Virus record (IMG/VR): IMGVR_UViG_3300014893_000002
Coordinates: 1 to 30,764 of that record
From: a virus
Lineage: Duplodnaviria > Heunggongvirae > Uroviricota > Caudoviricetes
Reading direction: 5' to 3' (one strand)
DNA: 30,764 bases
The notes beneath the pieces were generated by a model that was given only the letters and a program-made list of their open reading frames with translations, did no database searches and was not told the DNA's origin. Shown in pieces: positions 3,301 through 19,879 of the stretch (the first letter of the stretch is position 1; every line of letters begins with the position of its first letter). Both the position numbers and the translations under genes were made by a program.

Positions 3301-3602
3301 TTCAGACGGGCATTTACTGAATTCCACTCATCGGCGAGAGAAATAAGATGACCGGTAGCAAAAGCCCCGGCAAATGCCCCCGCCATGTTCAGTGCCGAAG
3401 ATTTAGCTGTATTTATCTGATCCGTCACTTCTGCCAGTGCACGCCGCATTTCACGGGATGCAGCAGCGGACTGTCGGCCTCCGTTCTGCATGGTACGGTA
3501 GTAATCCTGCCCCATACGCGAAGCCCGGGAGATCTCTGACTGGAATGACCGGGAATTTGCCGAGATTTTAATAATCAGTTCACGTAATGTCGCCACACTC
3601 AT
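357..3602 (-). CDS. tail tape measure protein
   Basis: 1081 aa ORF with a long coiled-coil and Gly/Ala-rich segments, positioned between the GT chaperone and gpM as in lambda-like tails. Confidence 0.9.
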   Translation of the reverse strand: MSVATLRELIIKISANSRSFQSEISRASRMGQDYYRTMQNGGRQSAAASREMRRALAEVTDQINTAKSSALNMAGAFAGAFATGHLISLADEWNSVNARLKQASQSSDDFQSSQRELMAISQRTGTAFSDNASLFARSAASMREYGYSSEEVLKVTEAISTGLKLSGASTAEASSVITQFSQALAQGVLRGEEFNSVNENGDRVIRALAAGMGVARKDLKAMADNGKLTADKVVPALISQLGALRDEYAAMPDTVSSSATKVENAFMAWVGGANEASGVTKTLSGVLNGIAGNIDTVATAAGALVAVGVARYFGNMASSAGSATAGLITAARNEVALAEVQLRGTQIATARARAAVYRAQQAVVAARGTERQAAAEAKLTAAQVSLTRNIAARTAAQTTLNNVTSVGSRLLSGALGLVGGVPGLVMLGAAAWYTMYQNQEQARESARQYAATIDEIRQKTSAMSLPEASDNEEKTRQALKEQNRLIDEQKSKIKSLQEKIAGYQYVLANPGWTTDNGFMINHMTSVKTVTEGLAEATNQLAVEQSRLTQMQGKAQSIQDVLAGLEERRVALIRQQAAEQNKAYQSLLIMNGQHTEFNRLLGLGNELLQQRQGLVNVPLRLPQATLDDKQQTALNNSERELALSRLKGEARERARLGYAADDLGFVGEAYQTARLNYINNSLDAWRNNQANKPKAHKKTEAEKIEDTYKQLIKQQKEQIALAGQNTELAKMKYQVSQGELSTLSEAQKKTLLQNAALIDQKKIREQLAAYESSLADSNASVRASNEAQLLGYGEGSRMRERLQEMWSIRQEFEQKNNELLRQYQAGEIEEALWKQEKSLNEKYLEERLSDQQDYYAKADALRSNWNAGLQEGLTNWADSATDYASQAADAVVSTMDGLVSNISDALAGNVVDWRNWGSSILQEVSKILMNAAIVNGLKSLSKSMSGAGGWLGTVGDWLSGAVANAKGGVYTSANLSAYSNTIVDTPTYFAFAKGAGLMGEAGPEAIMPLTRAADGSLGVRAIGNVNGGGGFVYSPVYHISIQNQGSNGEIDARSARGLVDLIDSRVVSIMQSSRRDGGLCSA

Positions 3603-3611
3603 TCTCCGGAC

Positions 3612-3634
3612 GAAAAAAAACCGCCGAAGCGGTT
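3612..3634 (-). terminator. intrinsic terminator or attenuator between GT chaperone and tape measure gene
   Basis: Minus strand reads AACCGC-TTCG-GCGGTT followed by a run of 8 U; perfect 6 bp stem with a TTCG tetraloop. Confidence 0.55.
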
Positions 3635-3642
3635 ATGTTGAC

Positions 3643-3933
3643 TCACTGAGACACTATTAAAAGCGCGTTTTCCAGTCCAGCAAATGGATCTGATACGCCT
3701 TCTGTCTGCTCCTTCTCCCACTGAAGAAGCGCATCATTCAGTGGCACTTTGACCCCCTGCGCACCGTAAACAGCTGAAACAATCTGGGCAGCCCGGATAT
3801 CAGCCCGTTCGTCCCCCAGCGTGCTGAACCTGTCAAATTCTGCCCACATCATGATTTCTGATGCGGACATTTCCCGGCGTAACTCTGACAATGTGCGCCC
3901 CATCCTGAGCGCCAGCATCATCAGAAAACGCAT
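3643..3933 (-). CDS. tail assembly chaperone GT, -1 frameshift extension (gpT-like segment)
   Basis: ORF in the -1 frame relative to G, entered from the slippery heptamer at 3948-3954; fused reading gives ..GEVKKKVALPGMRFLMM.. and it ends just upstream of the tape measure gene. Confidence 0.7.
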   Translation of the reverse strand: MRFLMMLALRMGRTLSELRREMSASEIMMWAEFDRFSTLGDERADIRAAQIVSAVYGAQGVKVPLNDALLQWEKEQTEGVSDPFAGLENALLIVSQ

Positions 3934-3944
3934 CCCCGGAAGCG

Positions 3945-4331
3945 CTACTTTTTTTTAACCTCGCCGGCATCACTGATTAGTTCCAGAGACTGCCGAAGAA
4001 GCCGCGCATGCACCGGGCCATACACGGCAATCACCTGTTCACGATCATCCTCTGAAAATACAGGTTGCAGTCCGGTATCACACAGAACATCGATGAACAG
4101 TTCAACATCCGCTTCCAGATTTCGGCGGGCGCGCTCCGCAACGGATAACGGTGTCTCATCATCTTTTGCTTTAACGATCTCCTGCCAGCGCAACCAGGCT
4201 TCTGCAGAAGGTTCCCGTAATACAACCGTTGCCCCTTCCCATTCAGGCACATCAACAGTTTTATGGCGAAACCCCGACATCGTTGCCAGTGCCAGATTAC
4301 GGATATTTTTAGTCATCACATCTATCCTCAT
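3945..4331 (-). CDS. tail assembly chaperone (gpG-like)
   Basis: 128 aa acidic ORF between major tail and tape measure genes, ending in the slippery site. An alternative start at ATG 4316 has a better RBS (GAGGAT). Confidence 0.75.
   Translation of the reverse strand: MRIDVMTKNIRNLALATMSGFRHKTVDVPEWEGATVVLREPSAEAWLRWQEIVKAKDDETPLSVAERARRNLEADVELFIDVLCDTGLQPVFSEDDREQVIAVYGPVHARLLRQSLELISDAGEVKKK
3948..3954 (-). other. programmed -1 ribosomal frameshift slippery site (A AAA AAG)
   Basis: Minus strand reads GTT AAA AAA AAG TAG at the 3' end of G; a -1 slip places the ribosome in the 3643-3933 frame (frame arithmetic checked). Confidence 0.7.
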
Positions 4332-5035
4332 TAACTGACGGTAACAGTGCAGGAAGTAGAGGTCACTTTGTTAACCGGGCTTGCTGAATCAGAAATCTCG
4401 CAGGTATATGCACCCGCATCACCGGATACTGCCGATGCCTTACTGAACGTTGCCGCCGTCTGTCCGGAAACAGGAGAACCACCTTTCTTCCAGACATAAG
4501 AATAAGGCGGCACACCACCCGCAGCCTCAACCGCCATTTCAAGTTTCGATCCGGAAGCAACCCGCAGCGTGCTTTTTAAATCGACCTTCACTTTCAGCGG
4601 CTCTGTCGTCAGCACAGGTTTACCTTTCAGGCGCAGAGAAAACGTTGCAGCCACAACACCATTGGTTCCTGCAGACCAGGTATGCTGACGCACCTCTGCC
4701 ATAAAGGTAAATCCGTTGCCTGACGGAAAAATAACTTTAAAGCCATACGTGGTGTCATTGTCATAGGCACTGCGCAACGCGTTCTGGGCAGCATTGAGGT
4801 AAAAGTTGCCTGACATGGAAATCTCTGAAGCAGCACCAAGGCCGTTAATATTTTCCTGCTCAACAGAACACAGCGTGGTGACATCAATATCCTGCTTTTG
4901 TCCTGCAGTAAACTGCACCTCTTTGATTGTACAGCTCAGGCCAAGATAGCTGGCAGAATCCAGGGTTTCTGCTGTTACCGGTGCAGACGAAATCATAATT
5001 TTCGTCAGTTGCGAACGCTCAAAATTAGAGGACAT
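4331..5035 (-). CDS. major tail protein with C-terminal Ig-like domain
   Basis: Position upstream of G/GT; C-terminal region resembles a Big_2-type Ig-like domain (..GGVPPYSYVWKKGG..AGAYTCE..). Start at ATG 5035 with AGGAG RBS; stop overlaps the G start (TAATG). Confidence 0.8.
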   Translation of the reverse strand: MSSNFERSQLTKIMISSAPVTAETLDSASYLGLSCTIKEVQFTAGQKQDIDVTTLCSVEQENINGLGAASEISMSGNFYLNAAQNALRSAYDNDTTYGFKVIFPSGNGFTFMAEVRQHTWSAGTNGVVAATFSLRLKGKPVLTTEPLKVKVDLKSTLRVASGSKLEMAVEAAGGVPPYSYVWKKGGSPVSGQTAATFSKASAVSGDAGAYTCEISDSASPVNKVTSTSCTVTVS

Positions 5036-5094
5036 ACTCGTCTCCTGAAAATAAAAAACCCGCCAGCGGCGGGTGGGTAAAATCATTAACGACC

Positions 5095-5439
5095 TCAGGC
5101 TATTACCTGAAATTCAAGCGTGGCTCTGCTCAGACGGGAGTCAGGATCATACCCCTGCGTTTTAGAAATAACGGAGGGTGCCAGTTTCCTTACTGCATCA
5201 AGCGCCTGCTCACGAATATCATCTGCGTCATCAGGTACTGTCGCCCAGACATCGATCTGCACGGTAATTCTGGATTCAGCCTGCCCATCAAGCACATCAG
5301 ATGCCGTGTCAGACACCACAGAAAACACCAGCCACGGCGGAGATACCGCAGGCTTTCCCTCCGTCAGCGGGACCACATAAGGATAAACCTGTCCTCCGGC
5401 CAGCTGAGACAACAGGGAATACAGTGTGCCCTCCCTCAT
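5095..5439 (-). CDS. tail component, DUF3168-like (putative tail completion or terminator protein)
   Basis: 114 aa ORF between the gp10-like gene and the major tail gene; family assignment is from position and general resemblance only. Confidence 0.5.
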   Translation of the reverse strand: MREGTLYSLLSQLAGGQVYPYVVPLTEGKPAVSPPWLVFSVVSDTASDVLDGQAESRITVQIDVWATVPDDADDIREQALDAVRKLAPSVISKTQGYDPDSRLSRATLEFQVIA

Positions 5440-5885
5440 TTACTTAAGACCTCATCAATAGCCTGATTCATTCGCTGTATGGCAACCTGCGCCGCCAGCT
5501 CCTCTGTCGTATCGAAAGCCGGGCGAATGAATGGATGCGCGGGCATGTTTATCGTTCCCAGCTCCACAAAGCGCCAGTAAAATGCATTTCGGGGATCGCT
5601 GGCTTTCATGCTGTTATCACTGTTTCCGGTTCGCAGGTTCCGTCCGCGAATGTGGACACCCGAGATAATTTCCCCCCGACGCTTTGAACGCTGAGTGAGA
5701 ACAACCACATTTTTCTTCAGTTTCCCGGTTCGCTCCGGCGCACGTTCAACAACTGCATCCCGCATAACTTCAGCACCGGCACGGGTGGCATCGCGCAGAA
5801 CCTTATTGTTTTCTGCCCTGCTGAGCGTCTCCAAATCCCGTGCAATATCCGCCAGGCCGGAAAAATCAAGACTGAAATCCATCAC
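5436..5885 (-). CDS. HK97 gp10 family phage protein
   Basis: 149 aa with the characteristic ..AFYWRFVELGT..P..PFIRPA.. segment; translationally coupled to both neighbours by overlapping start and stop codons. Confidence 0.65.
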   Translation of the reverse strand: MMDFSLDFSGLADIARDLETLSRAENNKVLRDATRAGAEVMRDAVVERAPERTGKLKKNVVVLTQRSKRRGEIISGVHIRGRNLRTGNSDNSMKASDPRNAFYWRFVELGTINMPAHPFIRPAFDTTEELAAQVAIQRMNQAIDEVLSK

Positions 5886-6220
5886 ACATTCCCCTTCAGG
5901 CTGCAGAGTATTTCAAGCCGGGTAGCGCGCGCATCCGGTATTGGTGGACCTTCTATACCCAGAATGGCCCCTTTAAATGCACCGGTCAGCACTTTCAGAC
6001 GTGAAGTCGCTGTCACATCGCGCCGGAATCTCATCCAGACTCTGACCGTAGCCTGAGCGGTTTCTGCTCCGCCTGAGATTATCTCCCTCCCGCTGATACC
6101 CTTAACTTCTGCCCATACGGTAGCTCCCTCCGTCACCGTCTCCACCGGATGCCCTGACGGAGAGCGGGCGGTGGTGACATTCAGAATAATTACGCGATCA
6201 CGTAATCTGCCCGCCTGCAT
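5882..6220 (-). CDS. head-tail adaptor / head closure protein (SPP1 gp16-like)
   Basis: 112 aa with RDRV.I, VWAEVKGISGRE, TIRVW and SRLKVLTGAF motifs; close paralog of the ORF at 14097-14435. Confidence 0.75.
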   Translation of the reverse strand: MQAGRLRDRVIILNVTTARSPSGHPVETVTEGATVWAEVKGISGREIISGGAETAQATVRVWMRFRRDVTATSRLKVLTGAFKGAILGIEGPPIPDARATRLEILCSLKGNV

Positions 6221-6228
6221 GTCTCCTC

Positions 6229-6546
6229 CTACAAAGGAATAAAACGATAAGGCTCCAGCAGAGAAGAAAAACCAAACGGGACTGGTGCCTTGCTGACATC
6301 TGAGGAATTTTCCCGGTTTTCGTACCAGTGCCCGACCAGCAACATGAGCGCCAGCAAAACATCATCAGCTATAAGCACCCCTTCAGGATCACCTTCCGGC
6401 ACCGTCTCCTCATAAAGCTTACGGTTGATAAAATTTTCTGCCTTGCGGCAGGCAGCCCGGAAATACAGCATCAGTAACTCATCATCAGTTGCATCATCTG
6501 TATCAATACGGCACTGCGCCCTGAGTTTTTCCACTATTGCTGCCAT
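6229..6546 (-). CDS. head-tail connector protein (gp6-like)
   Basis: About 105 aa starting MAAIVEKLRAQCRID..; gp6-like pattern, directly downstream of the major capsid gene. The track ORF extends upstream to 6726 and overlaps the capsid gene, which is unlikely. Confidence 0.65.
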   Translation of the reverse strand: MAAIVEKLRAQCRIDTDDATDDELLMLYFRAACRKAENFINRKLYEETVPEGDPEGVLIADDVLLALMLLVGHWYENRENSSDVSKAPVPFGFSSLLEPYRFIPL

Positions 6547-6580
6547 CAGAAACTCCTGCCCGCAACACTGTGCGGGCATA

Positions 6581-6603
6581 AAAAAACCGCGTCGGCGCGG
6601 TCT
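6581..6603 (-). terminator. intrinsic terminator downstream of major capsid gene 1
   Basis: Minus strand reads ACCGCG-CCGA-CGCGGT followed by a run of 7 U. Confidence 0.6.
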
Positions 6604-6622
6604 GTAACTGAACAACGAGTGG

Positions 6623-7840
6623 TTATTTGCCAGTGAGCGCCTTGATGGCTGCCACATCTTCCAGCACACAGTCAAAACGATGGAAAGCCAGAAATGCCAC
6701 CTGATCAAACTCAGCATAACGCTCAACCAGACGTTTCAGTTCCATATAAGTAACGCGGCGAATGATAAAGCGGTTGAAATCCCCCAGGAAAATGAATTTT
6801 TTTCCGGTACCAATCCCGTCAATAGCCTGATCAATAACATAAGGGATCCCCAGCACAGTAGCCGGCGTACCGCCTGCAATATCCGGCAGCCATAACGGGC
6901 GTTTCTGCCCATCCTCCATCTCTTCAATAGTCTGCAATGTGGCATCATTGAATGCCCAGCGGTATTTCGGCCCACCACGATATGCCGGATCAATGGCATG
7001 TTTCAGGGCATTCATTTCTTTCCAGGTGAAAGCGGCAGAGGCTGCAGTCTGGATGGTTCCCGTCACCGACGCTGCCAGCCCTTTTGGCTGTAACGGTGAT
7101 CCCGTTCCGGTCCCCTGAACCAGATATTTTGCCTCTCCACGACCAATACGCTGGGCAATACGGTTTGCCAGATAAGATTCAATATCCACCCCACTGTCCT
7201 GGAGCAGCTCATTGGACACACGAATTATTTTTGATGACAGCTTTTTAGCCCCCAGAATAGCGGTCCCGAACGTCACATCCTGTTCCGTTGCGGCTGTATT
7301 TTCCGCCAGCAGTTCGCCCTCTTCAGTCGTGCCATCAGACGTTGACCAGGTGATATCCTGCCCGGTTGATGTGGTCAGAAGTTGCGCCACACTGGCAATC
7401 CCGCCATAAGCCTTCATGGTGTCAATGATTTTGTTACGCATCTGCGTGGGCACCGTATATCCGCCCTGAGAATCCGTTGTTACACTCTGAGCCCGCAGTT
7501 CACGCATCAGATTACGCTCTTCAGCATTCAGTTCTGCAAATCCGGCACGCAGAAAACGGTTAAATGCCGCAGCGCGCTTCTCTTCCACCGCCTTTTTCCC
7601 GTTCTCCGCCTCATTATTCTGGCGCTCTTCCGGCCCGGACTCATCCACATATGCCTGATCCTGACGGCGCAACTCTTCTTCACGGGCGATTTGCTCATCC
7701 AGCGCATCCAGCTCAGCTTTCGCCCTGTTCCACTCTGCCCGTTGCTCATCAGTCCATGCGTTATCACCAATTTTTTCATGCAGTGCACGCATATCCTTTG
7801 CAATGGTGTTTCGTTTTTGCTTCATCTCATGAAGTTTCAT
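6623..7840 (-). CDS. major capsid protein, HK97 fold (head module 1)
   Basis: 405 aa with an N-terminal coiled-coil delta-like domain and a QGTGTGSPLQPKGL segment matching the HK97 NGDGTG..L.GL region. Confidence 0.9.
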   Translation of the reverse strand: MKLHEMKQKRNTIAKDMRALHEKIGDNAWTDEQRAEWNRAKAELDALDEQIAREEELRRQDQAYVDESGPEERQNNEAENGKKAVEEKRAAAFNRFLRAGFAELNAEERNLMRELRAQSVTTDSQGGYTVPTQMRNKIIDTMKAYGGIASVAQLLTTSTGQDITWSTSDGTTEEGELLAENTAATEQDVTFGTAILGAKKLSSKIIRVSNELLQDSGVDIESYLANRIAQRIGRGEAKYLVQGTGTGSPLQPKGLAASVTGTIQTAASAAFTWKEMNALKHAIDPAYRGGPKYRWAFNDATLQTIEEMEDGQKRPLWLPDIAGGTPATVLGIPYVIDQAIDGIGTGKKFIFLGDFNRFIIRRVTYMELKRLVERYAEFDQVAFLAFHRFDCVLEDVAAIKALTGK

Positions 7841-7854
7841 CGTCAGTAGTATCC

Positions 7855-8454
7855 TTATGCATTAAGAAGGGTCAAAAGACGCTCACGCGCCATTCGTTCG
7901 TTAACAGCTTTCTTCAGCGCACCACTCGCCCGCGCTTCCTGCCAGGCTTTCATTGAGCGGACACCAGAGTCTGCGTCCTGATAGGCCGGATATGTCACCG
8001 GGCTGACGTCATACAGACGAGAAATGCGCGTGATTTCCCGGATAACAATCCCCTCGTCGTCTTCATACCAGCTCTCTCCGTCACGGGCGACACGAAACGC
8101 GAACGAGGACTGATTAATGTCACCACGCAACATTGGAGACAGCACCAGGTCACAAATAGTCGGAGTATCCGGTGCAACAATGTCATAACGTAAACCGCGT
8201 TCATCCACCGACAATGACAACGTGCCGGCAGAACTTCGTCCGAGAATGAAATTAGGATCATGATTAAACAAGCCACGTACATCATCATTCAGTACATCAT
8301 CAAAAGCCCCCGGCTTGATGATTTCACGAAATCCCCACAGAGGTTCTGAACGACTGTTAAATACCGAGCCATACCCCAGAATGTGGGTCGGGGCATTATC
8401 ATATTGTTCCGCCCGCACCTCCCCGCTGTAACAGCGCGTTTCACGGTCATTCAT
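7855..8454 (-). CDS. prohead protease, HK97 gp4 family (head module 1)
   Basis: 199 aa with ..GYGSVFN.., ..KPGAFDD.. and ..PAY.. pattern typical of caudovirus prohead proteases; sits between portal and capsid genes. Confidence 0.85.
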   Translation of the reverse strand: MNDRETRCYSGEVRAEQYDNAPTHILGYGSVFNSRSEPLWGFREIIKPGAFDDVLNDDVRGLFNHDPNFILGRSSAGTLSLSVDERGLRYDIVAPDTPTICDLVLSPMLRGDINQSSFAFRVARDGESWYEDDEGIVIREITRISRLYDVSPVTYPAYQDADSGVRSMKAWQEARASGALKKAVNERMARERLLTLLNA

Positions 8455-9673
8455 CGTTCTTTTCCTCTTTGCCTTTCGTATCTTTAAAGTTATTCAACGG
8501 ATTTGCTGCATTTACGCTGACCAGCATTTCATCCAGACCGTCAACCGGGTTCATATCCTCAAATGCCCTGGCTTCATTCCGACTCATCCAGCCATCTGTA
8601 ATGGCAAAGTGATAGAACTGCGCACGCTCCTGTGGGGTCCCACGGAGCAACCCCGTGAGGTTGAAACGAACGTAATACCCGGCAGCCCGTTCTGTACGGG
8701 TAAACAGGCGACGGTTAAGCTCCTGCTCCCAGTTCGCAACCCAGGGCATCATCGTGTAGCGAACAAACTGAATCGCCTGCTGCGTAATATTCGAAAATGT
8801 GGCTTTTTCCAGGTCATTAATCATGTGCGCCGGGACATTAAAAATCCCGGCAATCATCGACCGGTTCAGCTTGGTCATATCAATGATCTGAGCATCCACC
8901 GGAGAAACTGTCAGAGCGCGGTAATCCAGTTGCGCAGGCAGCAACATGGTTTTATTTTCCTGGCTGCGAAGCGCTGTCACCGCCCGCTGCCACATATTTT
9001 TAAGCCTGCCCCAGCTTTGTTCGTTCAGTTCATTTTTCACAGAAATAATACCGGCAGGACGGGCATTACCGTTAAAAAAGGCGCTGGTATACTGCTGGCC
9101 ACTCATTCCCATACCAATGGTTTCAGCATGCTGCATGATCGGGCTCAGTCCCATTTTCTGATTGTTTCCCAGCGCCCTGATATGGATCATGTCGTCCGGA
9201 CTTACCGCAAATGCACCCTCTTCGTTATACACCCCGTAAGTATGACGCCCACCGGTGTTAAGTAACGTGGTTTCCCATGGCATACAGCATTCAAGGCTGG
9301 TAACCTCTCCACGACGATTACGTTTTACCCACGTATAACCATTGCCCCACCCCAGCACATGACGCTGCTTCAGTTCCCGCCACTTATAGCTGGTCTGCCA
9401 GGCATTAGGTTCATCATGAACGAGCCAGAACAACGGATGATCGCGTGCCGGCTGAACATGCTCATTCGTTTTTCGCATCACATGCAGGGGCATCTGAGCC
9501 ACACTGGATGAAATAACATAAATACAGGCATAGACAGCAGCCAGCTTCATGGATGTTTCCGGACTGACATACACATCCCGGGCAAAAATATTATCCGTCT
9601 CAGCGGCCTCTCCGGTTACCGGAACCGAGGGATTTTCCAGAGGCTCACTGCGAAACAGAGCATCAAGAAGCAT
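8447..9673 (-). CDS. portal protein, HK97 family (head module 1)
   Basis: 408 aa with typical portal C-terminal motifs (..AGIFNVP.., ..PWVANWEQELNRRL..); GAGGAG RBS 5 nt upstream of the ATG. Confidence 0.9.
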   Translation of the reverse strand: MLLDALFRSEPLENPSVPVTGEAAETDNIFARDVYVSPETSMKLAAVYACIYVISSSVAQMPLHVMRKTNEHVQPARDHPLFWLVHDEPNAWQTSYKWRELKQRHVLGWGNGYTWVKRNRRGEVTSLECCMPWETTLLNTGGRHTYGVYNEEGAFAVSPDDMIHIRALGNNQKMGLSPIMQHAETIGMGMSGQQYTSAFFNGNARPAGIISVKNELNEQSWGRLKNMWQRAVTALRSQENKTMLLPAQLDYRALTVSPVDAQIIDMTKLNRSMIAGIFNVPAHMINDLEKATFSNITQQAIQFVRYTMMPWVANWEQELNRRLFTRTERAAGYYVRFNLTGLLRGTPQERAQFYHFAITDGWMSRNEARAFEDMNPVDGLDEMLVSVNAANPLNNFKDTKGKEEKNDE

Positions 9674-9820
9674 GTTTTCTCCTCATGGACACCACCAGTG
9701 CATAAAGCAGCAACAAACAGCCCGACAGCATCAGAGACGCTGGCAGACCTGCATACAGATAAACGCCAGCAGTGAGCAAACCGAAACCGATCAGCCCGGT
9801 CATATCAGTAATAAGCTGTT

Positions 9821-10584
9821 TCACAGAATTAACAGGTCCTCATCAGGATCAAGCGTGGACAGAAAGTCATTCACGCCCCCTCCATTTACCAGAAAGCGGC
9901 TCATGGCTGTAAAAAGCGCAACAGGGCCGTCGATTTTGGCTTCCGGCGTGGATTTATTCGGGAAGATGTTGTCGTTTTTGTCCGGTTTTACAGTAACGTT
10001 AGACATCATCCAGTTCATGACCGGATGATTGCTGTGATGGAAACGCCCGGCATAAACCAGTGATTCCGTTTCCTTCATGGCCTCTGACAGATTGCGGACC
10101 GTCTGCGGAACCTCCACCAGCGGTATCCCTTCTTCAGCCAGTGCCAGGCTGAACTGCATTGCGCTCCACGGGTCAAATCCCAGTTCCCTGAGGTTTTCAC
10201 CGCCAATCCATTCCAGTAAGTCACTTTTTATCTGAGCATGATCGATAACATCACCATCCGTCAGGATGAGCTTATCCATCTCCGCCCACTTCCGGTAAAG
10301 TTCTGCCTGCTGCCGCGAGCATCGTTCCAGCCGTCCTTCCGGAAGCCAGAATTTAAAATCAGCATGAACATGTCCGTTATCGGTTCGCCAGAGTTTTGCC
10401 GCCGCACAGATATCAATCTTATGAGCAAGGTCGACGCCGACCCACATGGGATATGTTTTCAGCTCATGTTGTGGAGCAATGTATTCGCACTTCTCCCACT
10501 TAATCATATCCATCCAGGCAGATTCGGCAGTGACCCACACATTCATGTGTTTGGTAAGAATATTTCAAGTTTTTTAAAATCACC
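9821..10584 (-). pseudogene. terminase large subunit remnant (C-terminal nuclease-domain portion only)
   Basis: The 241 aa ORF aligns residue-by-residue to the C-terminal part of the intact TerL at 11074-12741, from about residue 330 to its end (e.g. LTKHMNVW vs LTKRFNIW, WVGVDLAHKIDI vs YAGLDLSSTSDI). No N-terminal ATPase domain; upstream frames are broken by stops and a frameshift, but weak homology can be followed to about 10584. Confidence 0.7.
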
Positions 10585-10615
10585 TGTATATCAATCATTT
10601 AACATGAAAAAACAG
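10585..10615 (+). other. candidate Mu-type terminal sequence (element end, putative transposase-binding site)
   Basis: TGTATATCAATCATTTAACATGAAAAAACAG begins with 5'-TG and resembles, from memory, the phage Mu left-end terminus (TGTATTGATTCACTTGAAGTACGAAAAAAAC). It lies exactly where TerL homology stops. Confidence 0.4.
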
Positions 10616-10838
10616 TCTTTATAAATCATCAAGCAATACACAGCGCAATACACGTATCTGTATTGTTTTAATGCTGATACACACCGTTTTTTTGATACAG
10701 TGATTCGACCTACCATCGCGAAGCATTTTTTATTTCTTGTGTGTAACAATCTGACGAGGTGAGCACTCAAAGAGATAAGAGGCAGTAGAAATTTCGATCC
10801 CCCCTGAATGCAATTTTTCGTATATATATACAAAACAG

Positions 10839-11073: not shown

Positions 11074-12741
11074 TTACACACCATCAAACGCCGCAAGCCG
11101 CTCTTTGTGGCTGTCGCTCATATCAAATGCAAATTCCTCATGCTCTGCCTGGAATGTGCCAAACGCCATCAGCGCCGCAACGCTCGGGTCTATCTTGTTG
11201 GATGATTTTTTCTTGTTCGGCTTGATATTGGCGTTCGCGTCACTCTGCATCACAACATTACACATTGACCAGGCCAGCACCGGATCGCCACGATGCACAA
11301 TCACCTTCCGGTTAACAAAAACTTCGAACGATTTCGCCGCCGGACTGAAACGAAGGTATGTTTGCGGGAACGGCTCCACCTCAAATCCTGCCCCCTGTAG
11401 CTGCGTCCTCAGGTGCGTAGCGTTCCATGTATCGAAGCCCACCAGCCTGATATTGAAATTCTCTGCATCCGCCATGATGTCATCACGGATACGGTCATAA
11501 TCAATGCAGTCACCCGGTGTTGTGCGTATCCAGCCCGCCTTTACCCACTGGCGATAGATGGCGCGGTTTTTATTAGCGGGGTTCTGTAGCTGAAATTCCG
11601 GCAGATAGTGACGGGAAACCAGCATAATCTTTTTACCGACCGGAAAGGCATAGCACACGCTGGAAATATCGCTGGTTGATGATAAGTCCAGCCCTGCGTA
11701 GCACTCCTGCCCGTATAAATCCGCCTCCGCGAACGTTCCGGCGCACTCCGCCCATGCACCATTACCCATCCACGGCGTAGCCCCCTGACACCAGATATTG
11801 AATCGCTTGGTGAGCATTTCCACCCACTGCGACGGAATACCCCGCGCTTTCTGGATGGTTGAGGCCAGTTTTTCACGATCGACGGAAACATCGATATTGG
11901 GATTCGCCTTTATCCACATCGCCGGATCGTCAACCTCGCTTTCATCATCCAGCTCGTAAATCAGCACGAACATGGATTCGTTCACCTCTTCACCATCCAG
12001 TATCTGGCAGCAATAGTCGTAGTGTTGTTTACAGGCTGAAACAACGTTGCTCCCCGATGTGGTGATGGCAAATAATAACCCCTCCGGACGCGCCCCCATT
12101 CCCAGTTCAAGCGCGGAATAAACCCCGTTGTCAGGGTGCAGGTGATATTCATCCACAATGGCAAGACTCGGGTTCTTCCCCTCAATGGTTGCCGCTTTTG
12201 CTGCCAGTGGCTTTAACAGGCTGTTGGTTTTCGGGTGTATCACCTTGTTCGCCTGAATATTTACCCGCTTTCGTAACGGTCGGGATAAAAGGCACATCTG
12301 ACGCGCATCATCAAACACGATCCGCGCCTGATCACGACTCACGGCGGCGGTGTAAATATCCTGCTGCCCGTTTTCCATAACCAGAAACCAGTTAGCCAGG
12401 ATAGCGGCGACCGTGGATTTGGCATTTTTTCGCGGTACTTCAATGAATGCGCTGGTGTATTTGCGCCGTCCGGTGGCCTTAACCTTAAAGCCCAGGATGC
12501 ACGCAAAGGCGAACTGCTGCCACGGCTCCAGTTCAATGGGGCTACCGTGCATTGCGCCTTTTACGTGCGGGCACACCCTGGAAAAGGCAATAAACCGCTC
12601 CACGACCTCCGAATCGAACATATAAAGGGGGTTTTCAAGGTCAGAAAAATACCGTTTAACGGTCTGTTTCAGTCGTTTACAGGCCGTAATTTTGCCGTTT
12701 TTTACGCCTTCTGCGTACTCATGCCAGGCGGTCAAGCTCAT
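11074..12741 (-). CDS. terL: terminase large subunit (intact)
   Basis: 555 aa with an N-terminal ATPase region and a C-terminal nuclease-type region (..AGLDLSSTSDISS.., ..VGFDTWNA..); start overlaps the TerS 3' end. Confidence 0.9.
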   Translation of the reverse strand: MSLTAWHEYAEGVKNGKITACKRLKQTVKRYFSDLENPLYMFDSEVVERFIAFSRVCPHVKGAMHGSPIELEPWQQFAFACILGFKVKATGRRKYTSAFIEVPRKNAKSTVAAILANWFLVMENGQQDIYTAAVSRDQARIVFDDARQMCLLSRPLRKRVNIQANKVIHPKTNSLLKPLAAKAATIEGKNPSLAIVDEYHLHPDNGVYSALELGMGARPEGLLFAITTSGSNVVSACKQHYDYCCQILDGEEVNESMFVLIYELDDESEVDDPAMWIKANPNIDVSVDREKLASTIQKARGIPSQWVEMLTKRFNIWCQGATPWMGNGAWAECAGTFAEADLYGQECYAGLDLSSTSDISSVCYAFPVGKKIMLVSRHYLPEFQLQNPANKNRAIYRQWVKAGWIRTTPGDCIDYDRIRDDIMADAENFNIRLVGFDTWNATHLRTQLQGAGFEVEPFPQTYLRFSPAAKSFEVFVNRKVIVHRGDPVLAWSMCNVVMQSDANANIKPNKKKSSNKIDPSVAALMAFGTFQAEHEEFAFDMSDSHKERLAAFDGV

Positions 12742-13075
12742 CCTCTTCCTCTGTTTCCGGTGGATTTCTGCGACGGCTTACCGGGTCAAAACCCAGCAAA
12801 GAAGCCATTTTGATCATTATTCTTTCCGCGTCAGCCTTTGCGCTCAGGGCCGGGTTTCTGCTCTCGCTGCCCTGACTGTTAACAATGCTGAACCCGCGCG
12901 TCGCAAGGTCTTCGACGGCTTTGCGGTATATGGAGTAGTTAACGCAATACAGTTCCAGATTGCTCCAGTCGGCGGGGGTAAGGTCTTCCCGCCCGGAAAG
13001 CTGCCGCGATTTTTCCTTCCACTGCTTTACCGCGATTTCATCCAGGTAAGCGGGGGCTTTTGGTGGTCTTGCCAT
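12719..13075 (-). CDS. terS: terminase small subunit, P27 family
   Basis: Starts MARPPKAPAYL.., the characteristic N-terminus of P27-family small terminases. The track ORF runs from 13216, but that region is more likely non-coding. Confidence 0.8.
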   Translation of the reverse strand: MARPPKAPAYLDEIAVKQWKEKSRQLSGREDLTPADWSNLELYCVNYSIYRKAVEDLATRGFSIVNSQGSESRNPALSAKADAERIMIKMASLLGFDPVSRRRNPPETEEEDELDRLA

Positions 13076-13363
13076 GTTCTTTTTTCGCCCAATTATTTTC
13101 AAAAAAATTCCCGTGCACAAAAATTTGAGGAGGCGGTCGGTGTCCGGCAGGGACGGTTTCGTCCTGAAAACCTCCCCCACCCCCTCTGACGACTTCACCA
13201 GCGATTGCGAAAACATTCCATGACCTCGCGGTCACGGTCGGTTAATCGCTTCGCTGTGGTGCGTTCTGTGCGTCCTATCCTGTTGGCTTTGTGCCCTGTC
13301 TCCTGTGTCTTCCATAAGTCACGCTGCCTTATCAGTCCACGTATCAGCCTGTTTTGCTCCTGT

Positions 13364-13804
13364 TCAGTCATCATCGCCATACATCCAGTCGTTACGATGT
13401 GCCGCCCGTTCTTCCTGCTCGCGATACATGCCCGCCTTACGGTTCGCTTTCGTGGCTGGATCTTCCCGTGTCGTCTTACGGTTGTGGCACGTCTGGCACA
13501 ATGCCTGGTGGTTCCACTCAGGCCAGAAGAGAACATCACCGCCGCCATTGATGGGGATAATGTGATCCACCACAAAGGCTGGCGTATAAATACCCTCAGC
13601 CAGACAACGCACACATAACGGATTTTTTTTCAGGTACAGGGCGCGATATTTGTCCCACTGTCGGGAATACCCGCGCGCGCGGCGGTGTCCCCGTCTGGCA
13701 TCCTCTGCACGCCATGCGGCCCGCCTGTGTTCTTCACACTTGCCGGACTTCACGCGCTTATTACAGCCCGGCTCTGTGCATCGCCTTAATGGTTGCCACG
13801 GCAT
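13364..13804 (-). CDS. HNH endonuclease (packaging-associated)
   Basis: Cys-rich N-terminus and HNH core (..VVDHIIPINGGG..NHQALCQTCHNRKT..); located immediately upstream of TerS as in HK97-type cos phages. Confidence 0.85.
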   Translation of the reverse strand: MPWQPLRRCTEPGCNKRVKSGKCEEHRRAAWRAEDARRGHRRARGYSRQWDKYRALYLKKNPLCVRCLAEGIYTPAFVVDHIIPINGGGDVLFWPEWNHQALCQTCHNRKTTREDPATKANRKAGMYREQEERAAHRNDWMYGDDD

Positions 13805-14100
13805 CAGTACACCCCCACATCACGATAAACCGACCAGAGCGCGGAAATCGTCAGGGGAATTTCTTTTGTATCTGTATCGCCAAGCGTTGTCCGGTACTCG
13901 TACAGTTGCGAGATGTACATCAGGCAGCCAATTTTTATTGCAGGGGTAAATTCCAGGCCATCATCAAAACGCCTACCAATATGTTTCTGACATACCTCCA
14001 GCGCCGCGCTTATGTATGCCTGAATCAGTGTGTCTTCTGTGTTACCGTCTATGCGGCAGTGAAGTTTGGCTTCTTCCAGGGTTATTTTTTCTGCTGTCAT
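13804..14100 (-). CDS. head-tail connector protein (gp6-like), head module 2
   Basis: 98 aa; paralog of 6229-6546 (..L.E.K.H.RID..D.LI..YI.AA..). ATGA overlap with the HNH start. Confidence 0.65.
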   Translation of the reverse strand: MTAEKITLEEAKLHCRIDGNTEDTLIQAYISAALEVCQKHIGRRFDDGLEFTPAIKIGCLMYISQLYEYRTTLGDTDTKEIPLTISALWSVYRDVGVY

Positions 14101-14435
14101 TTTTCTGTACCCACCTTTGCCAGAATTTCCAGCCGGGTTCTTTTCGCATCAGGTAAGGGGATCCCGATGATATTAAGCGTGCTCCCGGCAAAAGCACCGG
14201 TAAGCACTTTCAGTCGACTGGCGGCGGATATGTCGCCACGATAGCGAACCCATACCCGAATCGTTGCAGGTGCGGTTTCTGCGCCTGCGGTCAGTAATTC
14301 CCGTCCGCTGATCCCCTTGACCTCTGCCCAGATGGTTTCCCCTTCCGTCCATATCTGCCGGATCGCTCCTGACGGCAGGCGCTGCGTGATAAATGTCATA
14401 ATCGTCACCCGGTCCCGCATATTTCCGGCTATCAT
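14097..14435 (-). CDS. head-tail adaptor / head closure protein (SPP1 gp16-like), head module 2
   Basis: 112 aa; shares VWAEVKGISGRE, SRLKVLTGAF and TRLEIL with the copy at 5882-6220, roughly 60 percent identity by eye. Confidence 0.75.
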   Translation of the reverse strand: MIAGNMRDRVTIMTFITQRLPSGAIRQIWTEGETIWAEVKGISGRELLTAGAETAPATIRVWVRYRGDISAASRLKVLTGAFAGSTLNIIGIPLPDAKRTRLEILAKVGTEK

Positions 14436-15655
14436 TCGTCACCGCCCTGACTGTTCTTGCTGATTGTCACTTCCTGCTTCCATGCCTGGCTGAACTCGTC
14501 GCCACCTTCACGCGGCGGCATTCCCTCACGCTCACGGGCTTCGTTCGGATTCATGATCCCGTTCTTAATCCCTTTCTCATACGTGGCGTAACGTTCGGTA
14601 GGGGTGGCGCGTAATAAATCAGCTGAATCAAACTCAACCAGATAACGGGTACCGGGTACGGGAGAAGCCACCAGCAAAGCGGCCTTGATTTGCTGTTCGA
14701 AGTTCGCCAGCCACGGGCGCATTGTCATGGTCAGAAACGCGCGGCTTGCCTCGCTGAAATTGCTGTAGGTGCTGTTGCTGTATTCCTGCAGAAAAATAGG
14801 CGATACGTTGAACATCCGGGCGATGTCTTCAATGGAGAAGCGACGGGAGGCCAGCCATTCCGCATCCTGGTTACTCATTCCCAGTTGCTTGTAATCCATG
14901 CCCCCTTCAAGGATTGGCGTTTTTCCGGCATTTTTCGCCCCCTTGTAGCGTTCCAGAGCATCCAATGCCTGTTTACCTTTCACGCCGTCCAGCCATTCGC
15001 CTGACGTGATAATCCCTGCCGCCATCATGCCATCTTTCATAATGCTGGCTCCGTGGCGCTGTTGAGCAAGGCCAAGCCCAAGTGCCTCACGGCAAATCGT
15101 GACAGGGGAGCGCCCCAGAAAGCCATCATCCGAGGCATAGCGGAGATGCAGAACTTCTTCCTGTAAATACGTGCGCACCGTTCCTGTATAGGGTTCGGTG
15201 ATGGTATAGCGGTATTTGTGTGCGCCTGTGCGTTCCGGTACAACACAACCCGGTGCATAAGGATGAAGTGATTTTGGCTGACCGTCCCGCCCCCACTCAA
15301 TAACCGCATAGGCGTTACCGTTCAGCAGGCAGTGACGCATCATTGTGCGTTTAAACTGGTAAGGTGTCTGGCACGAATTAGGCTGCTCATTCAGCAGAAT
15401 ATCTACCGGATGACTGTCCAGCCATTCCCGCGCCTCCCTGCCCTTGTCATTACGTACCAGATACAGATAACAAGGCATCGTGGCCACCGCCTCAGCGATG
15501 ACAGAAACCGCGTTCATCACTGCAGGCAATGATTCAGCCGTCCCGGCAGAAACATATTCTCCGGATCCGGTATTCGGTACGCCGGCCAGCGCCAGAAAAT
15601 CATCAATGGACAGGTTACGTTGCTCACTTTTTTTACGACTAAAAGGCCACCACAT
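14432..15655 (-). CDS. portal protein, HK97 family (head module 2)
   Basis: HK97-type portal motifs (..LLNGNAY.., ..GMSNQDAEWLASRRFSIEDIARMFNVSP.., ..NPNEAREREGMPP..GGDE). Start placed at ATG 15655, just after the protease stop; the track start at 15745 overlaps the protease gene. Confidence 0.85.
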   Translation of the reverse strand: MWWPFSRKKSEQRNLSIDDFLALAGVPNTGSGEYVSAGTAESLPAVMNAVSVIAEAVATMPCYLYLVRNDKGREAREWLDSHPVDILLNEQPNSCQTPYQFKRTMMRHCLLNGNAYAVIEWGRDGQPKSLHPYAPGCVVPERTGAHKYRYTITEPYTGTVRTYLQEEVLHLRYASDDGFLGRSPVTICREALGLGLAQQRHGASIMKDGMMAAGIITSGEWLDGVKGKQALDALERYKGAKNAGKTPILEGGMDYKQLGMSNQDAEWLASRRFSIEDIARMFNVSPIFLQEYSNSTYSNFSEASRAFLTMTMRPWLANFEQQIKAALLVASPVPGTRYLVEFDSADLLRATPTERYATYEKGIKNGIMNPNEAREREGMPPREGGDEFSQAWKQEVTISKNSQGGDE

Positions 15656-15656
15656 A

Positions 15657-16217
15657 TCACAACCCCGCCAGCTCTGCCCAGCGATGACGATTATTTCCTG
15701 CCGGGCGTAATTCAGGGTGCAGTGCAAACAACGAACGGTGGGCAATCTCCACGCCAGATTCTGGATAAGCAGGCATCGACGTTATCGTGATTTCACGGAG
15801 TTCTGCGGCGGTAACAGTGCGCAGATACGGTTTTTGCGCGATATTCCACTCCTCGCATAATGCGCGAAAGCCAAAGCTCATTCCTGTAATGTCGCCCCGC
15901 TCCACCAGCGTAAGCACATCTTTCCCAAGCTGGGTATCCGGCGGTGTCAGTTCAAAACGTAACCCGGTGTTATCCTCAGTCAGTACCAGAGTGCCGGATT
16001 TGGTACGCCCCAGCAGTCGGGTACAGTCATGCTCATACAGGCAGCGCACATCATTACCCGCAGCCAGATAGTCAGCAAAAGCCCCCGGCGTGAACTGTTC
16101 GCGGAACTCATCCCAGATAATTTCTGAAAGGCTGTTCCAGCGAACGGCATACCCCACCAGCTTTTTATTGCTGGCGGTCAGTTCAGATGTGCGGATTTCA
16201 AAATCGGTGTTTTTCAT
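15657..16217 (-). CDS. prohead protease, HK97 gp4 family (head module 2)
   Basis: 186 aa with ..GYAVRWNS.., ..TPGAF.., ..GMSFGF.. and ..MPAYPESG.. pattern; GGAG RBS. Confidence 0.85.
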   Translation of the reverse strand: MKNTDFEIRTSELTASNKKLVGYAVRWNSLSEIIWDEFREQFTPGAFADYLAAGNDVRCLYEHDCTRLLGRTKSGTLVLTEDNTGLRFELTPPDTQLGKDVLTLVERGDITGMSFGFRALCEEWNIAQKPYLRTVTAAELREITITSMPAYPESGVEIAHRSLFALHPELRPAGNNRHRWAELAGL

Positions 16218-16234
16218 CGGTGTACTCCATAAAG

Positions 16235-16260
16235 CTGAAAAAGGAGGCCGCAGCCTCCTC
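16235..16260 (-). terminator. intrinsic terminator or attenuator between capsid gene 2 and protease gene 2
   Basis: Minus strand reads AGGAGGC-TGCG-GCCTCCT followed by UUUUU. Confidence 0.55.
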
Positions 16261-16271
16261 CTTACTCATGA

Positions 16272-17441
16272 CTAGCCAGCTTTCATTTCCAGAATTTTGA
16301 TGGCGTTTGAATCCACCACACCACCGCCCAGATATTTATCCGTGTGGACCTTGTAGAATCCGGGTTCAGTAATGTTGTCCGGTCGGGTGCGAATACCCGT
16401 TACATGATCAACGATGAAATAACCACGACTGAAATCACCAACCGCGAGCGGTGCTTTTCCTGCGCCGATGTCCGGCATGGACTCCAGGCAGTAAACAGGA
16501 CGACCAAGCAACATATCCGGCGCACCTTCTTTAAGGCTGTCGCGCCAGATATAATCGCCGTTCTCGTTTTTCAGCTTCTGTAGTGTCCCTGCCGTGCCCG
16601 AGTTCATCACCCAGACGGCATTTTTGCGGTATTTCGCTTTCAGCTTGTAGAGAATGTCGATCAGTTCGTCCGCTGTAATGGCGGTTCCACTTGCCGCTAC
16701 CATTTTTTCAATGGTGCCAAAAGCGCGGGTTTTGTCACTGGTCGCTGCACGGGTGTAAGCCATGAAGCCTTTCGGCTTGCCGTTACCGTCGCCATTAACA
16801 AAATCATCCTCTTCGGTGCTGGCGAACGTGTCGGCAATTTCGGAGGATAACCAGCCCAGAATATCCACCTCTGAAAAATCCAGAATTTCCTGCGTGGTTT
16901 TCGGGTAGGCGTAGATAGGATTCAACTTGATGGTTACGCGTTCAATTTTCGGGGTGTTGGTTTCGCTGCGCGCGCTGCCTTCTGTGCCTCGTCCTACAGT
17001 TGCGCCGCCAGTGGAAACCAGTTTCTGAAACTCATTTGATTTTGCGGTCTTCACGGTCGCAATCACGCGCATAACACTGTCATCCTGTAGCTGGCGCATG
17101 ACTTCGCGATCAAGCTCAGGAATTACGGTATATCCGCCATCCCTGCCGCTGTCAGTGCTGGTGGACAGTGATCGCACATCTCCGGTTACGATGTAGTTAC
17201 GCAATTCATCAGATGATAATTTCCGGATACCCGTTCCTGGCTTGCTGCGTTCTTCATCATCCACAGATTCGAGGCGGGAGATTTCTGTGTCGAGGGAATC
17301 GGCTTTTGCACGCAGTTCATCAAACTGTTTGCCCTCGTCATCGTTCAGGCTGCGGTTTTCACTGTCGGCTTTTTCCAGCAGAGATCGCATCTGGTTTTTC
17401 AGGGCGGTTTTTTGCTGGCGGAGTTCGATTAATTTCTTCAT
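16272..17441 (-). CDS. major capsid protein, HK97 fold (head module 2)
   Basis: 389 aa with an N-terminal coiled-coil delta-like domain and the ..DFVNGDGNGKPKGF.. segment matching the HK97 NGDGTG motif. Confidence 0.85.
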   Translation of the reverse strand: MKKLIELRQQKTALKNQMRSLLEKADSENRSLNDDEGKQFDELRAKADSLDTEISRLESVDDEERSKPGTGIRKLSSDELRNYIVTGDVRSLSTSTDSGRDGGYTVIPELDREVMRQLQDDSVMRVIATVKTAKSNEFQKLVSTGGATVGRGTEGSARSETNTPKIERVTIKLNPIYAYPKTTQEILDFSEVDILGWLSSEIADTFASTEEDDFVNGDGNGKPKGFMAYTRAATSDKTRAFGTIEKMVAASGTAITADELIDILYKLKAKYRKNAVWVMNSGTAGTLQKLKNENGDYIWRDSLKEGAPDMLLGRPVYCLESMPDIGAGKAPLAVGDFSRGYFIVDHVTGIRTRPDNITEPGFYKVHTDKYLGGGVVDSNAIKILEMKAG

Positions 17442-19853: not shown

Positions 19854-19879
19854 ATAAACCGGGAATTTATTGACGTTCG

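What the first reader, a model, noticed from the sequence alone, without database searches (positions are those of the whole stretch)
9821..10620. Truncated large terminase abutting a Mu-end-like terminus: probable insertion of the transposable element into the resident prophage's terminase gene
Seen in sequence: the ORF at 9821-10546 is colinear with only the C-terminal part of the intact TerL at 11074-12741 (from about residue 330), and no ATPase domain precedes it. TerL-like reading frames, with one frameshift and in-frame stops, can be followed to about 10584. At 10585 the sequence TGTATATCAATCATTTAACATGAAAAAAC resembles the Mu left-end terminus as I recall it. Inference: the low-coordinate end of the element is at 10585 and the insertion split the prophage TerL, whose N-terminal part should lie beyond the other element end. 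The element's own intact TerS and TerL then sit in the same orientation about 0.5 kb upstream of the remnant.
Basis: partly seen in the sequence, partly recalled or inferred. Interest (0 to 1): 0.75.

Follow-up and report, generated by a model that had tools for sequence, protein, structure and literature searches.

The report
Phage satellite integrated in prophage terminase gene
The half terminase gene is real and was split by an insertion, but the inserted element is an already catalogued phage satellite (a helper-embedded PICI) that enters prophage terminase genes by site-specific recombination; it is not the Mu-like transposable phage, which lies separately inside the satellite.

Summary
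ORF 9821-10546 (minus strand) is the 3' part of a prophage large-terminase gene. It is 100% identical in protein to residues 345-585 of the intact 585-aa TerL of phage Evi, and no ATPase domain precedes it.

The break is not a Mu end at 10585. Homology to intact terL stops at a 7-bp core, TTGGTAA (10551-10557). This is the attR junction of a helper-embedded PICI (HE-PICI, Tommasini, Mageeney and Williams 2023), site group A:Terminase_1:246. The 97.5%-identical element in E. coli 042 is listed in that paper's supplement with the same identity block, 'ttaccaa'. There it carries a tyrosine integrase, AlpA and a primase, and the missing 5' terL half plus terS lies just beyond the integrase. The family's doubled arm motif sits at 10633-10652, at the published distance from the core.

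The satellite has capsid-forming-PICI gene content: capsid, protease, portal, connectors, HNH, TerS, TerL. The intact TerS/TerL at 11074-13216 therefore belong to the satellite.

The Mu-like prophage is a third, nested element. Its true end is at 18805, inside the satellite's perC gene. The likeness of 10585 to the Mu left end is no better than chance. The junction is a known phenomenon; the triple nesting is a minor curiosity.

The parts
1..9824 (-). Late (head and tail) genes of the lambdoid helper prophage downstream of terL: tape measure 357-3602, major capsid 6623-7840, prohead protease 7855-8454, portal 8447-9673, small ORF 9663-9824.
   Evidence: Pfam hits for portal, Peptidase_S78 and Phage_capsid. 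97.6% identical and collinear with the E. coli 042 prophage. 98% identical to phage Evi over 6600-10564.
9821..10557 (-). 3' portion of the helper prophage terL (codons about 342-585 of 585). The listed ORF starts at an internal Met codon at 10546. This is a split gene, not a separate protein.
   Evidence: 100% aa identity to Evi TerL 345-585; in-frame ...TKH|MNVWVT, stops upstream. PGAP marks the 042 orthologue 'incomplete, missing N-terminus'.
10551..10557 (.). Crossover core / identity block TTGGTAA (ttaccaa on the gene strand) of the attR junction between helper terL and the satellite.
   Evidence: Three-way comparison of window, intact Evi terL and 042 attL. Core positions. The same block 'ttaccaa' is listed for all A_Terminase_1_246 HE-PICIs in the supplement of PMC10111431.
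10558..11073 (.). Non-coding right arm of the satellite (attP-derived), between the core and the satellite terL stop.
   Evidence: Window 10551-10609 is the exact reverse complement of the attR arm printed in the paper's supplement for an off-target family member inserted at a chromosomal site. The stretch is conserved in 042. No TerL coding. No Rfam family. No terminator-like site.
10633..10652 (-). Doubled HE-PICI arm motif (GCAATACACAGCGCAATACA on the + strand, the reverse complement of tgTGTATTGCantgTGTATTGCa). Probable integrase arm-type or AlpA binding site.
   Evidence: two GCAATACA copies 12 nt apart, starting 79-82 bp from the core. The paper gives 81 +/- 2 bp upstream of the attP centre. 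In 042 the second copy lies 133 bp from the core at attL, against the published 132 +/- 2.
11074..13216 (-). The satellite's own large terminase (11074-12741, ATPase plus nuclease domains) and P27-family small terminase (within 12719-13216).
   Evidence: Pfam. Annotated the same way in the 042 element.
13364..17441 (-). Satellite head module: HNH 13364-13804, head-tail connector 13804-14100, head completion 14097-14435, portal 14432-15745, prohead protease 15657-16217, major capsid 16272-17441.
   Evidence: Pfam. The gene order capsid-protease-portal-connectors-hnh-terS-terL is the one described for proteobacterial cf-PICIs.
17728..18804 (.). Satellite accessory ORF of unknown function (17728-18234, +) and the 3' part of the satellite's PerC-family regulator gene (about 18564-18804, -). 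The perC gene is cut 41 nt after its start by the Mu-like prophage.
   Evidence: Collinear with 042 up to 18804, which equals L001 21621, inside PerC 21366-21662. phrog_5789, unknown function.
18805..30764 (-). One end and the early region of a separate Mu-like (BcepMu-like layout) transposable prophage that runs off the window: terminus TGAAGGGACG..., Mor 20134-20520, GemA 20492-20983, Gam 23143-23673, AAA+ MuB-like 23973-25166, DDE transposase 25150-26919, repressor region about 28.4-28.9 kb.
   Evidence: Pfam and PHROG hits. In at least 10 E. coli genomes the same end, starting at window 18803-18805, abuts different chromosomal genes. The full prophage in strain SCU-105 is TG...CA with a 6-bp flanking repeat GCAAAC.

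Best explanation
The window shows three nested mobile elements.

1. A lambdoid prophage with HK97-type head genes.
2. A roughly 15-kb phage satellite of the helper-embedded PICI kind, with capsid-forming-PICI gene content. It is integrated in the prophage's large-terminase gene, co-oriented with the late operon. Integration was by tyrosine-integrase site-specific recombination at the 7-bp core TTGGTAA, after codon about 341 of 585.
3. A Mu-like transposable prophage that later transposed into the satellite's perC gene at 18804/18805.

The 'truncated TerL' is the 3' half of the interrupted helper gene, and 10551-10557 is the satellite's attR.

Inferred from the published model of this family, not shown here: while integrated, the satellite keeps helper terL split. 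It is replicated and transcribed passively with the helper's late operon. Its excision by Int/AlpA rejoins terL exactly. The satellite packages itself with its own HNH-TerS-TerL into its own small capsids and takes only tails from the helper.

In this particular copy, the roughly 38-kb Mu-like insertion between the replication and late zones has probably disabled the satellite as a packageable unit. This last point is also inference.
For: - Break point: window equals intact Evi terL up to 10557. The 042 attL equals Evi from TTGGTAA onward, so a 7-bp identity block is shared by both junctions and the empty site.
- Remnant protein is 100% identical to Evi TerL residues 345-585.
- Window 1-14007 and 14474-18804 are collinear with E. 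coli 042 at 97.5%.
- In 042 the element carries an integrase (Arm-DNA-bind_3 plus Phage_integrase), two AlpA proteins, a DUF927 primase, SSB, PerC, then the same head and terminase genes. The terL 5' half (Pfam ATPase plus nuclease positions 2-53), terS and HNH lie directly beyond int.
- Published catalogue: 'HE-PICI Eco33.15.A_Terminase_1_246, FN554766.1/2250958-2235714, helper Eco33.57.zinT|mtfA, ttaccaa'. These are exactly the 042 coordinates and the core that I derived independently.
- The family-specific doubled motif lies at the published spacing.
- An off-target family member keeps window 10558-10609 next to the core at a chromosomal site.
- Occupied versus empty sites: 34 of 930 E. coli genomes carry the junction. 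In the rows sampled across the remaining 896, the match stops at 10564 (10552 in one row) inside an annotated intact terminase gene. Eleven phage genomes match up to 10552-10564 inside an annotated terminase gene.
- Mu-like end at 18805: flanks differ in 10 genomes.
Against: - The integrase, AlpA, primase, attL and the terL 5' half of this particular copy lie outside the window, beyond about 38 kb of Mu-like prophage, and could not be retrieved. Their presence is inferred from the 97.5%-identical 042 element.
- No experiment here shows excision, packaging or helper dependence.
- Assignment to the cf-PICI type rests on gene content and order only.
Confidence: 0.93

Rival explanations
1. One reading: the Mu-like transposable element ends at 10585 with a Mu-type terminus. 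It transposed into the prophage terL, made a 5-bp TCACC duplication, and owns the intact TerS/TerL.
For: A Mu-like early region is present in the window. The 30-mer at 10585 is the best match to the real Mu left end among 4555 TG-starting 30-mers in the window.
Against: - The match is within chance: 7 of 40 shuffled windows do as well.
- Homology with empty sites ends at 10557, not 10584.
- 10558-10609, including TCACC and the 'terminus', is internal to the satellite and is kept in an off-target copy.
- 042 has the identical junction but no Mu-like element at all; it has an integrase instead.
- The real Mu-like end is at 18805. It has variable flanks elsewhere and unrelated terminal sequence with GATAAATG repeats.
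- No inverted copy of the 10585 sequence occurs in the window.
Confidence: 0.01
2. Mosaic module replacement: homologous or illegitimate recombination swapped a foreign TerS-TerL-head module into one phage genome and left a terL scar. On this reading there is no discrete mobile element.
For: Two HNH-TerS-TerL/HK97-type head modules lie in tandem in the same orientation. Phage mosaicism is common (general knowledge).
Against: - Discrete boundaries with a 7-bp identity block at both junctions.
- An adjacent tyrosine integrase and AlpA in the relative.
- Exact complementarity of the two terL halves (1-341 and 342-585).
- An empty site in about 900 genomes.
- The same element found at an off-target chromosomal site.
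Confidence: 0.03
3. The satellite is a decayed remnant. The junction is a fossil HE-PICI attR whose partner parts (int, attL, terL 5' half) have been deleted or rearranged in this strain, possibly by Mu-like transposition events.
For: The other flank cannot be seen. Transposable phages cause adjacent deletions and rearrangements (general knowledge). Tommasini et al. note many truncated helpers.
Against: Everything visible up to 18804 is intact and collinear with 042, with open reading frames throughout. The Mu-like end is a clean simple-insertion junction at the exact terminal TG.
Confidence: 0.1

Closest known systems
Helper-embedded PICIs (HE-PICIs), site group A:Terminase_1:246 (Tommasini, Mageeney and Williams, NAR Genom Bioinform 2023, PMC10111431). 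Catalogued member: Eco33.15.A_Terminase_1_246 of E. coli 042.
   Same: Same target gene and codon position. Same 7-bp identity block (ttaccaa). Same attR arm sequence. Same doubled TGTATTGC motif at the published spacing. Co-oriented with the helper late operon. 97.5% nucleotide identity to the catalogued 042 element over all visible parts.
   Different: This copy carries a Mu-like prophage inserted in its perC gene at 18805, and an extra head-completion gene (14097-14435) that 042 lacks. Its integration and replication zones lie outside the window.
Capsid-forming PICIs (cf-PICIs; prototype EcCIEDL933; Alqurainy et al., bioRxiv 10.1101/2022.09.08.507074).
   Same: Gene content and order are capsid, protease, portal, head-tail connectors, HNH, TerS, TerL. 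There are no tail or lysis genes. The 042 relative is about 15 kb and has int, AlpA and a primase.
   Different: That paper's identification criteria required attachment sites never occupied by prophages and reported six E. coli attB sites, whereas this element sits inside a prophage late gene. Direct sequence relatedness to EcCIEDL933 was not tested here.
Phage Mu / BcepMu-like transposable prophages.
   Same: The element starting at 18805 has a DDE transposase, a MuB-like AAA+ protein, Gam, GemA and Mor. It has TG...CA ends, a short target duplication and many different insertion sites.
   Different: It has nothing to do with the terL junction. The 10585 sequence is not one of its ends. Its early region is inverted relative to Mu, as I recall for BcepMu (from memory, not tested).

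Membership tests
HE-PICI (helper-embedded PICI), group A:Terminase_1:246 | Integrated inside a prophage late gene, splitting it, with no replacement sequence supplied. | tested here: met
   The terL remnant equals Evi TerL 345-585. Homology ends at 10557 and stops follow in frame. The empty site is present in the sampled majority of 930 genomes with this terL, and 11 phages match as far as the break.
HE-PICI (helper-embedded PICI), group A:Terminase_1:246 | Co-orientation of the satellite genes with the interrupted late gene. | tested here: met
   All satellite head and terminase genes and the helper late genes are on the minus strand. int, AlpA and the primase are also co-oriented in 042.
HE-PICI (helper-embedded PICI), group A:Terminase_1:246 | Group-specific attL/attR identity block 'ttaccaa' at TerL profile position about 246. 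| tested here: met
   TTGGTAA at 10551-10557 is shared with 042 attL and the Evi attB. The supplement lists ttaccaa for this group. The remnant starts at position 64 of the current nuclease-domain profile, which is consistent with position about 246 of the older whole-TerL profile. That conversion is my estimate.
HE-PICI (helper-embedded PICI), group A:Terminase_1:246 | Doubled motif tgTGTATTGCantgTGTATTGCa, 81 +/- 2 bp upstream and 132 +/- 2 bp downstream of the attP centre. | tested here: met
   The upstream copy is at 10633-10652, 79-82 bp from the core. The downstream copy is seen in 042, 133 bp from the core; in the window's own element it lies outside the window.
HE-PICI (helper-embedded PICI), group A:Terminase_1:246 | Integrase of the HE-PICI clade, plus AlpA and a primase (integration, Bro and replication zones). 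| not testable with these tools
   These lie outside the window, beyond the Mu-like prophage, and the source genome was not retrievable. They are present in the 97.5%-identical 042 element, which the paper lists as a member.
cf-PICI (capsid-forming PICI) | Encodes capsid, protease, portal, head-tail connectors, HNH, TerS and TerL in that order, and no tail or lysis genes. | tested here: met
   Pfam assignments for 11074-17441. Order as described. No tail or lysis genes in the 15.2-kb 042 element.
cf-PICI (capsid-forming PICI) | Builds its own small capsids, packages itself, and uses only helper tails. | not testable with these tools
   Needs induction, electron microscopy and transfer experiments.
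   The boundary is 10557 (BLAST extension to 10564), 27 bp before the proposed terminus. 10558-10609 stays with the satellite at an off-target site.
An inverted copy at the other end. | tested here: not met
   Alignment score 9 against the Mu L end; 7 of 40 shuffles do as well. Scores of -7 and -11 against the real ends of the resident element. No inverted copy in the window.
   In 042 the other junction carries TTGGTAA next to terL, not TCACC. At the corresponding position 042 reads TTGAC instead of TCACC, so it is a variable base stretch inside the element.
Mu-like transposable prophage (element starting at 18805) | DDE transposase with a MuB-like ATPase, Gam, GemA and Mor. The same terminus abuts many different host sites. 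TG...CA ends with a short duplication. | tested here: met
   (phrog_310 transposase). (10 genomes, different flanks, all starting at 18803-18805). (SCU-105 copy TG...CA with GCAAAC repeated). The other end of the window's own copy lies outside the window.

The most novel reading that the evidence does not exclude
The only unusual feature is the three-level nesting: a transposable phage inside a satellite inside that satellite's helper prophage. I found no description of this in the HE-PICI paper and did not search the literature for it.

The most novel reading not excluded is that the composite is still active. Int/AlpA could excise the roughly 53-kb satellite::Mu composite and restore helper terL. 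On that reading the Mu-like phage's fate would be coupled to helper induction and satellite excision.

A second possibility was raised speculatively by Tommasini et al. for captured late genes: the satellite's own HNH-TerS-TerL, sitting exactly where helper terL is broken, could functionally substitute for it before excision.
Probability: 0.1. Interest if true: 0.45.

Novelty: already known. Interest (0 to 1): 0.2.

Why it matters
It matters mainly as a correction. A split terminase gene next to a second, intact terminase in E. coli prophage regions is the signature of a helper-embedded satellite, not of transposition or decay. Annotation pipelines and readers should treat the two halves as one regulated gene that excision restores.

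The case also shows how a short recalled 'terminus' motif in AT-rich DNA can mislead. The real transposable-phage end was 8 kb away.

The nested Mu-like insertion is a small natural example of mobile elements preying on each other. It probably inactivated the satellite.

Tried and rejected
- Searched for an inverted copy of the 10585 sequence in 10400-30764: none, only chance-level pairs.
- Tried to recover the source genome to see the other flank. Two genome-contig scans found nothing, one with the PICI/Mu junction 41-mer and one with the predicted opposite junction.
- The metagenome scan found contig OBZP01000097.1, but the stored piece equals only window 9702-20435, at 100% identity. No complete E. 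coli genome has the PICI::Mu junction.
- Rfam on 9500-19500: no family.
- Promoter and terminator scan of 9700-11200: nothing above the shuffled expectation, and no terminator.
- PADLOC on the unknown ORFs of the satellite and the Mu-like region: no defence-system hit apart from weak HTH matches for the repressor.
- Considered that the Mu-like early region plus the cf-PICI head module might be one hybrid 'transposable satellite'. Rejected because the two parts have independent distributions, with a sharp junction at 18804/18805 and variable flanks elsewhere.
- Looked for a mapped cos site of cf-PICIs in two papers to interpret the GCGGGTTA repeats: no location is given.

Full report
**What is at the coordinates**

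Nearly all genes of the window are on the minus strand. ORF 9821-10546 translates to 241 aa. It matches only the endonuclease domain of large terminases (PF20441, profile positions 64-283 of 286, E 7e-37). It aligns with residues 314-530 of the intact 555-aa TerL at 11074-12741 at 29% identity. It is 100% identical to residues 345-585 of the 585-aa TerL of Escherichia phage Evi.

Downstream lie a portal, an S78 prohead protease, an HK97-type capsid and lambda-like tail genes.

The claim that TerL-like frames continue to about 10584 is not correct. Nucleotide identity to intact terL ends at 10557, with sporadic matches to 10564. In frame, only ...TKH precedes the internal Met before stops appear. 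tblastn of either TerL N-terminal half against 10547-11073 gives only scattered hits with E >= 0.03.

**What interrupted the gene**

Upstream of the 516-bp spacer are an intact TerL and a P27-family TerS. Next come HNH, a gp6-like connector, a head completion protein, a portal, a prohead protease and a major capsid. This is the gene order described for proteobacterial capsid-forming PICIs.

Window 1-14007 and 14474-18804 are collinear with E. coli 042 at 97.5% identity. In 042 the same head and terminase module continues into PerC, SSB, a DUF927 primase, a BRO-N protein, two AlpA-family proteins and a tyrosine integrase with an arm-binding domain. Directly beyond the integrase lie a terL fragment 'missing C-terminus' (ATPase domain plus nuclease profile positions 2-53), terS, HNH and the lysis genes of the lambdoid prophage.

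I compared the window, the intact Evi terL and the 042 integrase-side junction. All three share the 7-bp block TTGGTAA (window 10551-10557). To one side the window equals Evi; to the other side the 042 attL equals Evi. This is the pattern of tyrosine-recombinase integration, not of transposition.

**Comparison with the literature**

Tommasini, Mageeney and Williams (PMC10111431) described helper-embedded PICIs (HE-PICIs). These satellites integrate, co-oriented, into one of 14 sites in prophage late genes, including sites in the lambda A (TerL) cognate.

- Their supplement lists 'HE-PICI Eco33.15.A_Terminase_1_246, FN554766.1/2250958-2235714, helper Eco33.57.zinT|mtfA, ttaccaa'. The genome is E. 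coli 042. The coordinates are the two cores I located (L001 13712 and 28957). The block is the reverse complement of TTGGTAA.
- The paper reports a family-specific doubled motif, tgTGTATTGCantgTGTATTGCa, 81 +/- 2 bp upstream and 132 +/- 2 bp downstream of the attP centre. The window has it at 10633-10652, 79-82 bp from the core. 042 has the second copy 133 bp from the core at attL.
- The supplement's attR alignment for an off-target member, inserted between chromosomal genes, reads tttcatgttaaatgattgatatacaggtgattttaaaaaacttgaaatattcttaccaa. This is the exact reverse complement of window 10551-10609.

**Frequency**

A 321-bp probe across the junction matches 930 of 5426 complete E. coli genomes. 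In 34 of them it covers the junction. The other 896 do not reach that coverage. In the 38 such rows sampled evenly down the ranking, the match stops at window 10564 (10552 in one row) inside a gene annotated as an intact large terminase. Eleven sequenced phages match as far as 10552-10564 inside an annotated terminase gene. The full-length terL was checked directly in Evi.

**The Mu-like element**

The window does contain a Mu-like early region: Mor, GemA, Gam, a MuB-like AAA+ protein and a DDE transposase. It is a separate element.

A probe across 17400-21000 splits sharply. Positions up to 18804 match the 042 satellite, ending 41 nt into its PerC gene. Positions from 18803-18805 onward match a prophage that abuts different chromosomal genes in at least ten other genomes: a sulfatase-like gene, ycbJ, yieE, nlpA and others.

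In strain SCU-105 this is a complete myovirus-type transposable prophage. It has divergent early and late regions, TG...CA ends and a 6-bp flanking repeat GCAAAC. Its ends carry GATAAATG repeats and do not resemble the 10585 sequence.

Against the real Mu left end, fetched, the 10585 30-mer is the best TG-starting 30-mer in the window. However, 7 of 40 block-shuffled windows do as well. The resemblance is chance in AT-rich DNA.

**How it most likely works**

Shown here:
- The anatomy of a satellite attR inside helper terL.
- Co-orientation of satellite and helper late genes.
- The exact complementarity of the two terL halves in a close relative.
- The empty site.

Taken from the published model, not tested here:
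- The integrated satellite keeps the helper late gene split.
- It is replicated and late-transcribed passively with the helper.
- Its excision restores the gene.

No terminator-like site lies between the satellite terL and the helper portal gene. This is compatible with read-through but is weak evidence.

From the cf-PICI work, a satellite with this gene set builds its own small capsids, packages with its own HNH-TerS-TerL and takes only tails from the helper.

My inference for this copy: a roughly 38-kb Mu-like insertion between the replication and late zones makes the satellite far too large for its own capsid, so it is probably disabled. Integrase-mediated excision could still restore helper terL.

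**Limits**

The integrase side of this particular copy is outside the window. Attempts to retrieve the source failed or returned only window 9702-20435. The presence of attL and the terL 5' half in this strain is therefore inferred from relatives.

**Verdict**

The finding is a real split terminase gene, correctly sensed as an insertion. It is an instance of an already described and catalogued phenomenon: HE-PICI site A:Terminase_1:246. The only new feature is the third level of nesting.

Noticed in passing
window 18799-18810 (junction at 18804/18805) and 18805-30764: A Mu-like transposable prophage (early region inverted relative to Mu, myovirus late genes in the SCU-105 copy) is inserted 41 nt into the satellite's PerC-family gene. 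This gives three nested mobile elements. The expected duplication at the unseen other end is TACAGC or ACAGC.
   Followed up: partly
window 10840-10865 and 10942-10994: Three tandem GCGGGTTA(T/G) repeats and, in inverted orientation, three (T/A)AACCCGCAA repeats spaced 21-22 bp apart. They flank an AT-rich stretch with small palindromes (10896-10928), just downstream of the satellite terL. The cluster is conserved in E. coli 042. It may be a TerS-binding/cos region or an origin. I found no published mapping.
   Followed up: partly
window 14008-14473 versus L001 (E. coli 042) 17168-17288: The window's satellite has a head-completion gene (14097-14435, PF05521). The otherwise 97.5%-identical 042 element lacks it: 466 bp here against 121 bp there.
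   Followed up: no
window 25412-30612 versus L002 (SCU-105): The Mu-like prophage is 98% identical to the SCU-105 copy from its end to 25411. It then shows no BLAST match down to 30612, a stretch covering the transposase, upstream regulators, the repressor and two + strand ORFs of unknown function (28906-29892, 29974-30564). This suggests an immunity/transposition module swap between otherwise similar phages.
   Followed up: no
window 17728-18234 (+) and 18239-18595 (+): Two opposite-strand ORFs lie between the satellite capsid gene and perC. The first belongs to phrog_5789 (unknown function) and is conserved in 042. The second has no family hit and overlaps the perC region, so it may not be a gene. 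No PADLOC defence hit.
   Followed up: partly
window 12719-13216: The mechanical ORF for the satellite TerS (165 aa) is longer than the PGAP call in 042 (118 aa, starting at the internal MARPPKAP...). The Pfam match covers residues 63-157, so the upstream 46 codons are probably not translated.
   Followed up: no
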